Shown piece after piece: positions 41,240 through 43,456 of a stretch of DNA of 48,438 bases (its first letter is position 1; each line of letters starts with the position of its first letter). The translations under genes were made by a program, and so were the position numbers. Origin of the DNA: an uncultured bacterium (GTDB lineage: Bacteria; Patescibacteriota; Minisyncoccia; Phycocordibacterales; PALSA-1337); the NCBI GenBank assembly GCA_903864905.1, contig CAIPHR010000073.1:1-48438 (forward strand), written 5' to 3'. A model generated the notes under the pieces. It ran no database searches, had not been told where the DNA came from, and saw only the letters and a program-made list of their open reading frames with translations.

Positions 41240-43456
41240 ATGATTATGATAAAAGAAGATTACCGCCCTCTGGCTGTATTGTACGGCTATCGGAGTAAGA
41301 AAAACACGCTTAGTTTTGTGGGTCGTAAAGGGCTAATAACGCTAAGTGGTAAAAGCGCTACTATCCAAAAGATTTTGCGCCTATGCAACGGATTCAACAG
41401 TTTAGCGGATATAACTCGCAAACTACGGATGGTCAGTCCGGAAGAAGTGAGCGAATTCCTGTCTCTTTTTGAACAACAAGGGATTGTTTGCGATAGTCGG
41501 GATCTTCATCTAAAGTTCCACGAAGATTCGGCCAATCCGGCGAAATTTTCGCGAGACCTAGGTGTCGACGGTGTTTCGGATATGCTCCAATCTGAACGGC
41601 TACGGAAGCGTGAGGGTCAGACAATTGAAATGCCTAGCCCAATTGAGAGTAGTGTTCTGGATACAATTCAGGATCGCAAGTCCACACGAGCTTTTCAATC
41701 CGGGCAGATTCCAATAGCACAACTATCTGGAATGCTTGAGGCCACATACAGTATCGGGAAAAATAAACACTGGAGCGTGGCATCCGGTGGCGGAATGTAT
41801 CCGCTTGATCTGTACATGATCATTCCAGACGACAAACAACAGGTGCCTATGGGCATACATCGATGGAATCCCGAAGAAAGAAGTTTGATCACGATATCGG
41901 GTAATAATCCAAGCGTATGGTTGTCCAAAATCTTCAACGCTAAAACACTTTTGGAAAATGTGGCATGTATCCTATGCATTGCGGCAAATTTCAAACGTTC
42001 AACGATGAAGTACGCGAACCTTGGATATCGCTTGACCTTGCTTGAGGCTGGACACGCCGCACAAAACACTTACTTATTTTGCGCTGAGCAGGGTATTGGA
42101 ATTGTCGAGTGCTGTGGGTTTGCTGACGAAGCGTTGGCGGACAAACTTGGACTATCATTTCCAGATGAGGCAGTTTTAGCAACACTCATTATGGGAAAGA
42201 TCAGTACCGATGTGCAGACCTCAATACCTGATCAGGAGATTTCGGAAAAAGCAGAGCGGTTACGCCACATCCTTGTTGGAGACAGTAAACCAATAAAGGA
42301 CGTGTTGTTTCTGGATCTTAAAGTCGATGGATACGCTATGCCGATGTGGTCGGCTGTGGCCACATATCGTCCTGTTCCTGGTTGTCTCACGGCGTCGATG
42401 AAAAGGAAAAGTGTTGGGTTCGCGACTGGTTCTACTTCTAGCGAGGCACTTCTCAAAGTCCTGGCGGAGGGTTTCGAGCGGTATGCACTTGAGCAGAATC
42501 GTAGTGATCGAAAGGAAAGTGCTATCAATCTTACCGAACCATTTCTCGATCCTCGCATTTTAGTACCTTACTCGGCAGCTCAGTTCAAAAACCTGAGAGG
42601 TATTTCACGGTTTGATTATCGACGGGAAATAGACTGGGTAATTGGTTCACGTCGAGCGACTGGTGAGCGAGTCTGGGTTCCTATGGAGCTTGCGTACTAC
42701 GCTACAGAGAAAATGAAGCATGAGCTTAAGTTGTGCTATCAGGCGAGTTCAAGCGGTGTGGCGGCGCACTTCGACAAGGAGGTAGCGATTGACACAGCGC
42801 TTTATGAACTGATCGAACGGGACGCCTTCAGTGTTACATGGTATTCCAAACGTCGAGTTAATTCGATCAATCACGAGTGTTTACCAGTGAACTTGAGAGA
42901 TAGGATTTCTGAGTGGAAGCGGTTGGGTTACAACGTTTCCATACTGGATCTGACACTCGATGGTCCTCCTGTAGCACTGGCTATCATTTGGTCTCGAGAA
43001 AAGAAACCAGCAATCTGTTCTGGTGCGGCCTGCAGACCGAGTTTTGTTGATGCGACTCTGAGGGCATTCAATGAGGCTGAGTTTATGGCTATGACGTGGC
43101 ATGACCACAGATCAAAATCGAAGATGGAAATGTGCGAGATTGATAGTACGGAAAGTCACGGGATCTTCTATCTCAATCCGGGAAATATTGCATATGCCGA
43201 CTGGTTACTTGAAGCAGAAGAAAGTGATGTAATCAGGGAAGACTTCGAGGGTAATCTACAGTATCTTGATCCTGTTGTGGTGGACATTACACCCAAGAAT
43301 CATGCCTGTGGCTTGTCGGTTATGCGGGCGCTGTCGGAAAAGCTCATGCCTATCAACTTCGGTTACGGAAACGAACACCGTGGACATTCCAGGATGGACA
43401 TGTTATCGTTTAAGTGGAGTGAGAAATACCCTTCGACTCCACACTTCTTCGCTTGA
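41240..43456 (+). CDS. Fusion protein: PqqD-like RRE, SagB-type FMN dehydrogenase and YcaO cyclodehydratase
   Basis: 738 aa. N-terminus LITLSGKSATIQKILRLCNGFNSLADITRKL..PEEVSEFLSLFEQQGIV is PqqD/RRE-like. Middle DRKSTRAFQ, SGGGMYPLDLY, VPMGIHRWNP and YRLTLLEAGHAAQNTYL..GIGIVECCGF is SagB/nitroreductase-like. C-terminus GFATGSTSSEALLKVLAEGFERYA and SSSGVAAHFDKEVAIDTALYELIERDAFSVTWY is YcaO-like. Confidence 0.85.
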   Translation: MIMIKEDYRPLAVLYGYRSKKNTLSFVGRKGLITLSGKSATIQKILRLCNGFNSLADITRKLRMVSPEEVSEFLSLFEQQGIVCDSRDLHLKFHEDSANPAKFSRDLGVDGVSDMLQSERLRKREGQTIEMPSPIESSVLDTIQDRKSTRAFQSGQIPIAQLSGMLEATYSIGKNKHWSVASGGGMYPLDLYMIIPDDKQQVPMGIHRWNPEERSLITISGNNPSVWLSKIFNAKTLLENVACILCIAANFKRSTMKYANLGYRLTLLEAGHAAQNTYLFCAEQGIGIVECCGFADEALADKLGLSFPDEAVLATLIMGKISTDVQTSIPDQEISEKAERLRHILVGDSKPIKDVLFLDLKVDGYAMPMWSAVATYRPVPGCLTASMKRKSVGFATGSTSSEALLKVLAEGFERYALEQNRSDRKESAINLTEPFLDPRILVPYSAAQFKNLRGISRFDYRREIDWVIGSRRATGERVWVPMELAYYATEKMKHELKLCYQASSSGVAAHFDKEVAIDTALYELIERDAFSVTWYSKRRVNSINHECLPVNLRDRISEWKRLGYNVSILDLTLDGPPVALAIIWSREKKPAICSGAACRPSFVDATLRAFNEAEFMAMTWHDHRSKSKMEMCEIDSTESHGIFYLNPGNIAYADWLLEAEESDVIREDFEGNLQYLDPVVVDITPKNHACGLSVMRALSEKLMPINFGYGNEHRGHSRMDMLSFKWSEKYPSTPHFFA

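What the first reader, a model, noticed from the sequence alone, without database searches (positions are those of the whole stretch)
41240..43456. RRE-dehydrogenase-cyclodehydratase fused in one polypeptide, with no separate C-protein
In well-studied TOMM systems, such as the SagBCD and McbBCD types, the dehydrogenase (B), the E1-like/RRE partner (C) and YcaO (D) are separate proteins, or else C-D are fused. Here the domain order reads RRE (residues ~20-85), SagB-like (~150-330) and YcaO (~390-738). An E1-like domain is not evident. This suggests a minimal architecture in which a PqqD-like RRE alone directs YcaO.
Basis: partly seen in the sequence, partly recalled or inferred. Interest (0 to 1): 0.7.

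Follow-up and report, generated by a model that had tools for sequence, protein, structure and literature searches.

The report
Single-protein azole peptide synthetase cassette
One gene in this candidate-phyla-radiation bacterium joins a peptide-recognition domain, an FMN dehydrogenase and a YcaO cyclodehydratase, and it sits next to a microcin-B17-like precursor peptide and a protease, so it is probably a compact three-gene kit for an azole-modified peptide that lacks the usual E1-like helper.

Summary
ORF 41240-43456 (+) encodes one 736/738-aa protein. Its N-terminal domain (about residues 8-95) folds as a RiPP recognition element (RRE): its best structural matches are the RREs of TruD, LynD, PbtF, ThcOx, TbiB1 and McbB. 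A SagB-type FMN dehydrogenase (about 136-325) and a YcaO domain (about 335-736) follow.

No E1-like or ThiF-like domain was found in the protein, in the window ORFs scanned, or as a recurring neighbour in 46 related loci. Residues 330-400 align to the N-terminal part of the YcaO domains of TruD, MusD and LynD, so they are not a cryptic E1 domain.

- A 44-aa precursor gene lies at 43495-43629 (MKTRKMPKAPKGVKVSVRSYRNGPDPRCNRSGGACSGGGSCGRR). It has a basic leader with a beta-strand motif and a Gly/Ser/Cys core like microcin B17.
- A hairpin plus U-run follows it.
- A DUF2268 HExxH protease gene lies at 43710-44384.

The fused enzyme forms a large, uncharacterised family, found mostly in Patescibacteria. 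More than 150 clusters at 50% identity align end to end.

Linear azole peptide clusters in CPR bacteria were already noted by Sharrar et al. (2020), and RRE-dehydrogenase fusions and partner-free YcaOs are known. I therefore rate this a new variant of a known kind. Whether the enzyme truly works without an E1-like partner is inferred, not shown.

The parts
41240..43456 (+). Fused RRE-SagB-YcaO gene. It encodes 738 aa from the first ATG; the likely start is 41246, giving 736 aa as in all homologues.
41267..41530 (+). RiPP recognition element (RRE), residues about 8-95 in 736-aa numbering. It has four short strands, three helices, one more strand and a final helix.
   Evidence: AF2 models. Foldseek top hits are the RREs of TruD, LynD, PbtF, TigE, ThcOx, TbiB1, CteB and McbB. 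It is as conserved as the catalytic domains.
41651..42220 (+). SagB-type FMN-dependent azoline dehydrogenase domain (nitroreductase fold), residues about 136-325. R144, S146 and R148 of the RKSTR motif and the K255-Y256 pair are invariant or nearly invariant.
   Evidence: Pfam PF00881 and TIGR03605 above cut-off. PDB hits are BmdC, McbC and ThcOx, and the K-Y pair aligns with 'PKYG' of BmdC.
42248..43453 (+). YcaO cyclodehydratase domain, residues about 335-736. It carries the conserved ExxER and ELIERD motifs and a nearly invariant C-terminal YPSxPHFFA.
   Evidence: Pfam PF02624 at E 1.4e-43. A profile search against the PDB aligns it from about residue 335 to the YcaO domains of TruD, MusD and LynD. 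Foldseek hits are and invariant columns.
43495..43629 (+). Precursor peptide gene, 44 aa: MKTRKMPKAPKGVKVSVRSYRNGPDPRCNRSGGACSGGGSCGRR. It has a basic leader with a VKVSVRSY strand motif and a Gly/Ser/Cys-rich core.
   Evidence: Translation. Comparable small ORFs lie next to the fusion gene in most Patescibacteria loci. Differences concentrate at third codon positions (12 against 6 and 1 for window vs L006).
43655..43697 (+). Stable hairpin followed by a U7 run directly after the precursor gene. It is a probable intrinsic terminator or attenuator.
   Evidence: The 81-nt stretch 43625-43705, which holds this hairpin and a smaller upstream one, folds at -30 kcal/mol, z = -5.1 against shuffles. 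A hairpin plus T-run sits at the same place in L006, L004, L001, L012 and L005 despite different sequence. The simple consensus scan did not list it.
43710..44384 (+). DUF2268 predicted Zn metalloprotease (HELHH motif), the candidate leader peptidase.
   Evidence: Pfam PF10026 at E 2e-33. The HExxH motif is in the translation. A homologue lies next to the fusion gene in 25 of 46 loci.

Best explanation
The cassette 41240-44384 is a minimal biosynthetic cluster for a linear azole-containing peptide (LAP/TOMM type) from a Patescibacteria (CPR) genome.

Proposed mechanism:
1. The 44-aa precursor is bound through its leader (strand motif VKVSVRSY) by the N-terminal RRE of the fused enzyme.
2. The YcaO domain uses ATP to cyclodehydrate Cys and Ser residues of the core (CNRSGGACSGGGSCGRR) to azolines.
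3. The SagB-type FMN domain in the same chain oxidises the azolines to thiazoles and oxazoles. The adjacent Cys-Ser and Ser-Cys pairs could give linked bis-heterocycles as in microcin B17.
4. The DUF2268 Zn protease removes the leader.

No E1-like or Ocin-ThiF-like partner takes part. In the chain, the nitroreductase-fold dehydrogenase sits where the E1-like domain sits in LynD and TruD. As a nitroreductase-fold domain it probably dimerises, and it probably provides the scaffold that holds the RRE and YcaO together.

Shown here: the three domains, the absence of an E1 domain in cis, in the window ORFs scanned and among recurring neighbours of the related loci, the conserved precursor, protease and hairpin, and conserved catalytic motifs.

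Inferred: leader binding by this RRE, azole chemistry, independence from any partner in trans, the protease's role and the bioactivity.
For: -
- The full-length model is confident, including interdomain packing (pTM 0.86). It aligns over its whole length to LynD and TruD in the order RRE, middle domain, YcaO.
- Catalytic motifs are invariant across 45 homologues: RxSxR and K-Y in SagB, K404/E408/E411/R412 and E521/E524/R525 in YcaO, and PHFFA at the C-terminus. They align with the corresponding motifs of TruD, LynD and MusD and of BmdC.
- The RRE is as conserved as the catalytic domains.
- Precursor ORFs with a basic strand-motif leader and a Gly/Ser/Cys core lie next to the enzyme gene in most Patescibacteria loci and, in diverged form, in Mycolicibacterium, Bdellovibrionales and Argonema loci. 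The small ORF is under coding selection and is followed by a conserved hairpin plus U-run.
- DUF2268 is the only gene that regularly accompanies the enzyme (25 of 46 loci). No ThiF or E1 family recurs.
- No E1 or ThiF hit was found among the window ORFs scanned.
- The same tools readily detect the separate RRE-E1-like protein of the canonical Paracoccus denitrificans cluster, which hits TIGR03882 and the ThiF/MoeB models.
Against: - Nothing here is biochemical evidence.
- The window is a 48-kb contig, so a partner encoded elsewhere in the genome cannot be excluded.
- The 2481-aa ORF and several small ORFs in the window were not scanned.
- The YcaO domain scores below the curated cut-off of the SagD TOMM model (148.6 against 219.25 bits), so it is a divergent member.
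- The N-terminal domain has no significant sequence match to known RREs. The assignment rests on a predicted structure and Foldseek E-values of 1e-4 to 1e-2.
- RREs fused to dehydrogenases have been suggested to be vestigial.
- 21 of 46 loci lack a nearby DUF2268 gene, so the protease is not obligatory.
Confidence: 0.65

Rival explanations
1. The enzyme still needs an E1-like or Ocin-ThiF-like partner that is encoded elsewhere in the genome. On this view the fusion only joins the B and D functions, and its RRE is the one that often accompanies SagB-type dehydrogenases.
For: In characterised azoline-forming systems the YcaO is strongly potentiated by a C or F protein (reviews quoted). Only 48 kb of this genome is visible. 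A related YcaO in Paracoccus (about 33% identity) works in a cluster with a separate RRE-E1-like protein.
Against: No E1 or ThiF family recurs within about 6 kb of the fusion gene in 46 loci from very different genomes. None was found among the window ORFs scanned. RiPP partner proteins are normally encoded in the cluster. The RRE is highly conserved, and the cassette appears in different gene neighbourhoods.
Confidence: 0.12
2. The RRE serves only the dehydrogenase, or is a structural relic. The YcaO domain would then recognise its substrate without a leader, through the core or simply through proximity, as the partner-independent bottromycin YcaOs do.
For: RREs fused to dehydrogenases in cyanobactin, LAP and thiopeptide clusters were considered possibly vestigial. 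ThcOx is among the structural matches. Partner-independent YcaOs are known (bottromycin clusters lack an identifiable C protein).
Against: The RRE is as conserved as the catalytic domains across sequences down to 30% identity. The precursors keep a leader with an alternating strand motif of the kind RREs bind. The best structural matches are the functional RREs of TruD, LynD and PbtF.
Confidence: 0.12
3. The YcaO domain catalyses a different amide activation, such as thioamide or amidine formation or peptide cleavage as in MusD. The nitroreductase domain would then do different redox chemistry, so the product is not an azole peptide.
For: The YcaO domain falls below the SagD-family cut-off and also matches the thioamidation YcaO model weakly. 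MusD, a YcaO with peptidase activity, is among the closest structures.
Against: No TfuA or sulfur-transfer gene lies nearby. The SagB model is met above its cut-off, with the invariant Lys-Tyr pair typical of azoline oxidases. The cores are Cys/Ser/Gly-rich like microcin B17. The C-terminal Pro-rich tail resembles that of azoline-forming YcaOs.
Confidence: 0.06

Closest known systems
Microcin B17 synthetase McbBCD with its precursor McbA (E. coli)
   Same: Both combine a YcaO cyclodehydratase with an FMN dehydrogenase and act on a Gly/Ser/Cys-rich core that has adjacent Cys-Ser and Ser-Cys pairs. Both have an RRE for leader binding. McbD, McbC and the RRE-bearing McbB are all structural matches.
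   Different: McbB, McbC and McbD are three separate proteins, and the RRE sits on the E1-like McbB, which scaffolds an octameric complex. Here everything is one chain, no E1-like domain exists, and the RRE is attached to the dehydrogenase. The leader is short and very basic. The protease is a DUF2268 protein.
Cyanobactin heterocyclases LynD, TruD and PatD, and MusD (fused C-D enzymes)
   Same: These are the best full-length structural matches. They share the N-to-C order RRE, middle domain, YcaO. Their RREs are the closest structural matches to the N-terminal domain, and the YcaO motifs align.
   Different: Their middle domain is E1-like; here it is a nitroreductase-fold FMN dehydrogenase, which is unrelated. 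In cyanobactin pathways oxidation is done by a separate oxidase (a domain of PatG, or ThcOx).
ThcOx (CyaGox) and other RRE-fused azoline dehydrogenases
   Same: An RRE-like domain lies N-terminal to a SagB-type FMN oxidase. This class of fusion was noted by RRE-Finder.
   Different: From my own knowledge, not tested here, ThcOx has two RRE-like domains. It has no YcaO domain, and its RREs are suspected to be non-essential. Here there is one well-conserved RRE and a YcaO domain fused at the C-terminus.
LAP clusters of CPR bacteria reported by Sharrar et al. 2020 (mBio, PMC7298704)
   Same: They come from the same kind of organism and have the same gene content: YcaO, nitroreductase, peptidase and a nearby precursor. 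That study found 110 clusters in 93 CPR genomes.
   Different: That paper describes YcaO and nitroreductase as neighbouring genes and an 84-aa precursor. The passages read do not mention the single-chain fusion, the RRE, the missing E1-like partner or the DUF2268 family.
Canonical TOMM cluster of Paracoccus denitrificans (locus L041)
   Same: Its YcaO and SagB are related to the window protein (about 33% identity). Its C-terminal tail (CPHPLA) is similar to the window protein's TPHFFA.
   Different: The genes are separate: a large upstream ORF that looks like a radical-SAM enzyme (read from its sequence, not HMM-tested), an RRE-E1-like protein (TIGR03882 hit), a YcaO (355 bits on TIGR03604) and a 259-aa SagB without an RRE. 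This shows what the fused family lacks.

Membership tests
TOMM/LAP azole synthetase (B, C and D functions) | YcaO domain with the ATP/Mg2+-binding acidic motifs | tested here: met
   PF02624 at E 1.4e-43 over 3-320 of 325 profile positions. Invariant K404, E408, E411, R412, E521, E524 and R525 align with the CEAxERY and ELxERD motifs of TruD, LynD and MusD.
TOMM/LAP azole synthetase (B, C and D functions) | Score above the curated cut-off of the SagD-family model TIGR03604 | tested here: not met
   148.6 bits against a cut-off of 219.25. The canonical Paracoccus YcaO scores 355.6 bits. The window domain is a divergent YcaO clade.
TOMM/LAP azole synthetase (B, C and D functions) | SagB-type FMN dehydrogenase with a conserved Lys-Tyr pair | tested here: met
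   TIGR03605 scores 97.8 bits against a cut-off of 78.4. K255-Y256 are invariant and align with 'PKYG' of the azoline oxidase BmdC. That this pair matters for function is prior knowledge of TOMM dehydrogenases.
TOMM/LAP azole synthetase (B, C and D functions) | E1-like (C) or Ocin-ThiF-like (F) partner, fused or encoded nearby | tested here: not met
   No ThiF, E1, TIGR03603, TIGR03882 or TIGR03693 hit in the protein at E<=1 or in the window ORFs scanned. No recurring family of that kind appears in 46 loci. There is no room in the chain. As a positive control, the Paracoccus C protein is detected. The rest of the genome is not visible.
TOMM/LAP azole synthetase (B, C and D functions) | RRE (PqqD-like winged helix) for leader recognition | tested here: met
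   For the fold only: AF2 pLDDT 87.9. The Foldseek top hits are the RREs of TruD, LynD, PbtF, TigE, ThcOx, TbiB1, CteB and McbB. Peptide binding was not tested.
TOMM/LAP azole synthetase (B, C and D functions) | Adjacent precursor gene with a leader and a Cys/Ser/Thr-rich core | tested here: met
   The 44-aa ORF at 43495-43629. Homologous or analogous ORFs lie next to the enzyme gene in most loci. Codon-position bias supports coding.
TOMM/LAP azole synthetase (B, C and D functions) | Pro-rich C-terminal tail (PxPxP type) of azoline-forming YcaOs | tested here: inconclusive
   The C-terminus YPSTPHFFA has invariant P732 and H733 and nearly invariant F734, F735 and A736. It resembles PxPxP but is not identical to it. 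The Paracoccus TOMM YcaO ends CPHPLA. The motif definition is recalled from the literature and was not re-read.
TOMM/LAP azole synthetase (B, C and D functions) | ATP-dependent azoline formation and FMN-dependent oxidation on the precursor | not testable with these tools
   This needs in-vitro reconstitution or co-expression with mass spectrometry.
Partner-independent (standalone) YcaO, bottromycin type | No partner protein and no RRE; the substrate is recognised by the YcaO itself | tested here: not met
   A conserved RRE is present in the same chain, so this protein is not a bare standalone YcaO.
RRE-fused azoline oxidases (ThcOx type) | RRE-like domain N-terminal to a SagB-type FMN oxidase | tested here: met
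   ThcOx (5lq4, 8pz5) matches both the RRE and the oxidase domain. The window protein adds a YcaO domain that ThcOx lacks.

The most novel reading that the evidence does not exclude
This would be a leader-dependent azole synthetase contained in a single chain. In it a nitroreductase-fold dehydrogenase, probably dimeric, has taken over the scaffold role of the E1-like domain, so that RRE, FMN oxidase and YcaO in one polypeptide are sufficient. This minimal machine, together with a DUF2268 leader peptidase, would be a widespread way in which ultra-small CPR/Patescibacteria make microcin-B17-like peptides, perhaps to act on their hosts or competitors.
Probability: 0.45. Interest if true: 0.75.

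Novelty: new variant of a known kind. Interest (0 to 1): 0.6.

Why it matters
If the single protein is sufficient, it would show that the E1-like or ThiF-like partner, long treated as part of the definition of azoline-forming cyclodehydratases, can be dispensed with. An RRE tethered through another domain, probably a dimeric one, would be enough.

It would also provide a compact one-enzyme tool for installing thiazoles and oxazoles in peptides.

The family is large and mostly confined to CPR bacteria, which have tiny genomes and an episymbiotic lifestyle. A conserved three-gene antibiotic or signalling cassette there is a tractable entry point into how these organisms interact with hosts and neighbours.

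Genome-mining pipelines that require an E1 or ThiF partner would miss these clusters.

Tried and rejected
- Sequence-only recognition of the N-terminal domain failed. Pfam and NCBIfam gave no hit. A profile of 32 N-termini against PDB sequences gave only weak winged-helix regulators and unrelated proteins at E 0.04-2. hhalign against the RRE of the Paracoccus C protein aligned in register, but with only 5% probability. The RRE call therefore rests on predicted structure.
- A cryptic E1-like domain in residues 330-400 was rejected, because that stretch aligns to the YcaO domains of TruD, MusD and LynD.
- An assembly or frameshift artefact was rejected, given the number of full-length homologues.
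- I first read the genome scan as showing fusions in Paracoccus, Clavibacter and Pectobacterium. For Paracoccus, inspection showed separate YcaO and SagB genes in D-B order that tblastn had joined. I now count as fusions only the loci where one ORF covers the whole query. Clavibacter and Pectobacterium were not inspected.
- The simple terminator scan did not list the hairpin after the precursor. Folding showed it.
- Searches of the held open-access and bioRxiv library for a described SagB-YcaO fusion found none. The key review (Burkhart et al. 2017) is not held, so prior description cannot be excluded.
- I could not obtain the model coordinates to measure how the RRE is positioned relative to the YcaO active site.
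Full report
**What is at the coordinates**

ORF 41240-43456 on the + strand is the only long ORF there. It translates to 738 aa. All homologues begin at the second Met, so the likely start is 41246 and the product 736 aa. The residue numbers below use that 736-aa numbering.

- Pfam finds a Nitroreductase domain (143-320, E 7.8e-17) and a YcaO domain (396-698, E 1.4e-43).
- NCBIfam finds the SagB dehydrogenase model above its cut-off (97.8 against 78.4 bits).
- The SagD TOMM cyclodehydratase model scores below its cut-off (148.6 against 219.25 bits).
- Nothing matches the first ~135 residues by sequence.

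**Is the N-terminus an RRE?**

An alignment of 45 homologues gave a confident AlphaFold2 model (mean pLDDT 88.7, pTM 0.86). Residues 8-95 form short strands, three helices, a strand and a further helix.

The first 106 residues were modelled alone (pLDDT 87.9) and searched against the PDB with Foldseek. Nearly all of the top 13 hits, and several further down, are RiPP recognition elements:
- TruD (E 1.1e-4, rmsd 2.8 A over 79 columns, 20% identity) and LynD
- the isolated RRE of the Ocin-ThiF-like protein PbtF
- TigE, ThcOx, the lasso-peptide RRE TbiB1, CteB and McbB

Sequence profiles alone do not reach significance, which is usual for RREs. The domain is not decaying. Its mean pairwise identity in the family is 0.44, against 0.48 for the SagB domain and 0.47 for the YcaO core.

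**Is there a hidden E1-like domain?**

No.
- No ThiF or E1 model matches at E<=1.
- A profile of residues 322-736 aligns to the YcaO domains of TruD from its residue 359, MusD from 379 and LynD from 381. The aligned region starts at about residue 335 of the window protein.
- The nitroreductase domain ends at about 325, so only about ten residues are unassigned.
- Full-length Foldseek puts LynD and TruD first, aligned over the whole chain in the order RRE, middle domain, YcaO. The dehydrogenase therefore occupies the position that the E1-like domain holds in the cyanobactin heterocyclases.

**Catalytic competence**

Invariant columns across sequences down to 28% identity include the following:
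- R144 (with S146 and R148 nearly invariant) and the K255-Y256 pair in the dehydrogenase
- K404, E408, E411, R412, E521, E524 and R525 in the YcaO domain
- the C-terminal tail PHFFA (P732 and H733 invariant, F734-A736 nearly so)

The K-Y pair aligns with the K-Y of the azoline oxidase BmdC. The acidic YcaO motifs align with those of TruD, LynD and MusD.

A 44-aa ORF starts 39 bases after the stop codon, at 43495-43629. It encodes MKTRKMPKAPKGVKVSVRSYRNGPDPRCNRSGGACSGGGSCGRR.

Small ORFs of the same design lie beside the enzyme gene in most related Patescibacteria loci. They share a basic leader with an alternating strand motif (VKVSVRSY, KVRIRPY, FKVTRKPY, LKVTVSEY) and a Gly/Ser/Cys-rich core that often ends in Gly-Lys or Gly-Arg. 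Diverged forms occur in Mycolicibacterium, a Bdellovibrionales MAG and the cyanobacterium Argonema. In Argonema the ORF is upstream and carries a (GGGS)n run.

Evidence that the small ORF is a real gene:
- Between the window and its orthologues, differences concentrate at third codon positions: 12 against 6 and 1, 19 against 8 and 8, and 29 against 12 and 17.
- The ORF is followed by a hairpin plus U7. The 81-nt stretch that holds it folds at -30 kcal/mol, z = -5.1.
- Five other loci have a hairpin plus T-run at the same place with different sequence. A terminator-like hairpin after a precursor gene is a layout I recall from other RiPP operons.

Next comes a DUF2268 predicted Zn protease at 43710-44384 (E 2e-33, HELHH motif). 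It is the only gene that regularly accompanies the fusion, in 25 of 46 loci.

**Search for a partner**

- All-against-all clustering of ORFs within about 6 kb in 46 loci found only DUF2268 (25 loci), histidine kinases (10) and ABC transporters (6) as recurring neighbours.
- The window ORFs scanned contain no ThiF or E1-like protein. The 2481-aa ORF and a few ORFs under 200 aa were not scanned.
- The tools do detect such partners when they are present. The related but unfused cluster of Paracoccus denitrificans has a 371-aa RRE-E1-like protein that hits TIGR03882 and the ThiF/MoeB models. It is followed by a separate YcaO (355 bits on TIGR03604, ending CPHPLA) and a 259-aa SagB without an RRE.

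**Distribution**

- The word-indexed search found 65 relatives, nearly all about 736 aa. The few that carry a source name are called Taylorbacteria, Uhrbacteria, Parcubacteria or Patescibacteria.
- The exhaustive profile search of 1.84 billion representatives found 2119 proteins at E<=1e-30. Nearly all of the best 150 (E<=1e-126) are 700-750 aa and align over positions 1-736.
- The species-genome scan adds Saccharibacteria and Paceibacteria. It also adds true single-ORF fusions in Mycolicibacterium, Cupriavidus (two paralogues), Reyranella and Bdellovibrionales.

**Comparison with what is known**

- The closest functional analogue is microcin B17 synthetase, in both core composition and enzyme functions. 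There the RRE sits on a separate E1-like McbB, and three proteins form an octamer.
- The closest structures are the fused C-D heterocyclases LynD and TruD.
- RRE-dehydrogenase fusions are known and were considered possibly vestigial.
- Bottromycin clusters lack an identifiable C protein. From my own knowledge, their YcaOs work without a partner.
- LAP clusters with YcaO, nitroreductase and peptidase were reported in 93 CPR genomes.
- Reviews define azoline-forming YcaOs by an E1-like or ThiF-like partner, and mining pipelines filter on it.
- I found no description of the RRE-SagB-YcaO chain in the held library. The main review is not held.

**Verdict**

The most likely reading, at about 0.65, is a minimal three-gene LAP cassette. 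One protein would bind the leader, cyclodehydrate and oxidise, and the dehydrogenase domain would replace the E1-like scaffold.

Independence from a partner in trans, leader binding and the chemistry itself are all inferred. I rate this a new variant of a known kind. It is of moderate to good interest because it challenges the assumed need for an E1 or ThiF partner, offers a compact enzyme, and marks a large CPR-centred family.

Noticed in passing
window 40001-46000: G+C is about 45% here, against 33-42% in the rest of the window. The block covers the azole cassette and the flanking histidine-kinase genes, which suggests a horizontally acquired island.
   Followed up: no
window 40315-41139 (-), 44431-46122 (-), 47101-48438 (+, open at the contig end): Three histidine-kinase-like genes surround the cassette, and one has a 7TM sensor domain. 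Kinase genes recur near the fusion gene in 10 of 46 loci. The modified peptide might be a signal, or the kinases might regulate production or immunity. No response regulator was identified.
   Followed up: partly
window 41516-41539 (residues 91-98 of the fused protein): The motif FHEDSANP lies just after the RRE. N97 is invariant and F91, H92, S95 and P98 are nearly invariant. D83-S84-R85 just upstream are also nearly invariant. The function is unknown. It may be a hinge or a contact to the dehydrogenase or YcaO domain.
   Followed up: no
window 43615-43626 and precursors in L001, L004-L006, L008, L012, L013, L015, L028, L033, L038, L044: The precursor cores almost always end in Gly followed by one or two Lys or Arg residues, or a similar basic tail (CGRR, CGR, CGK, GGK, SGKR, CSK). 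This conserved C-terminal feature is unexplained.
   Followed up: no
window 37180-39761: A restriction-modification pair, an N6/N4 DNA methylase and an AlwI-family endonuclease, lies just upstream of the cassette.
   Followed up: no
window 13579-19979: A second defence-like block holds a DNA methylase fused to a DUF4625 domain, a NYN-domain protein, a ResIII/DEAD helicase-nuclease and a DUF2726 protein.
   Followed up: no
window 2899-10344: A 2481-aa ORF that was not analysed.
   Followed up: no
window 32923-34746: An ABC transporter gene lies about 6.5 kb upstream of the fusion gene. ORFs that cluster with it by BLASTP occur near the fusion gene in 5 other loci. It could be an exporter or immunity pump.
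   Followed up: partly
window 46216-47097; L017 8048-8956, L008 2899-3507, L033 9685-10440, L037 150-836: The window gene has Pfam methyltransferase hits and clusters only with an ORF in L027. ORFs in four other loci form one cluster. The two whose sequences I read (L017, L008) look like class I SAM methyltransferases by their Gly-rich motif and were not HMM-tested. A tailoring role is possible.
   Followed up: no
L039 2630-8145 (Cupriavidus sp. H19C3 chromosome 2): Two tandem fused paralogues (750 and 755 aa) are separated by a 326-aa protein. That protein has no NCBIfam hit and looks ATP-grasp-like by eye.
   Followed up: partly
L021 2553-2783 (Saccharibacteria MAG): The small ORF next to the fusion gene has an unusual Cys-Asp-rich core, CGCDCECDSDCQCDCGCGCNCDCAGDCGQD.
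   Followed up: no
L003 7623-7841 (Argonema antarcticum): The candidate precursor lies upstream of the fusion gene. It carries an eight-fold GGGS repeat before SSGGCSGGNKSSR, and no DUF2268 gene is nearby.
   Followed up: partly
L041 2851-7903 (Paracoccus denitrificans DSM 413): A canonical, unfused TOMM-type cluster with a large upstream ORF that looks like a radical-SAM enzyme (read from its sequence, not HMM-tested). The order is that ORF, an RRE-E1-like protein, YcaO and SagB. ORFs that cluster with the rSAM-like ORF occur in 6 loci.
   Followed up: partly
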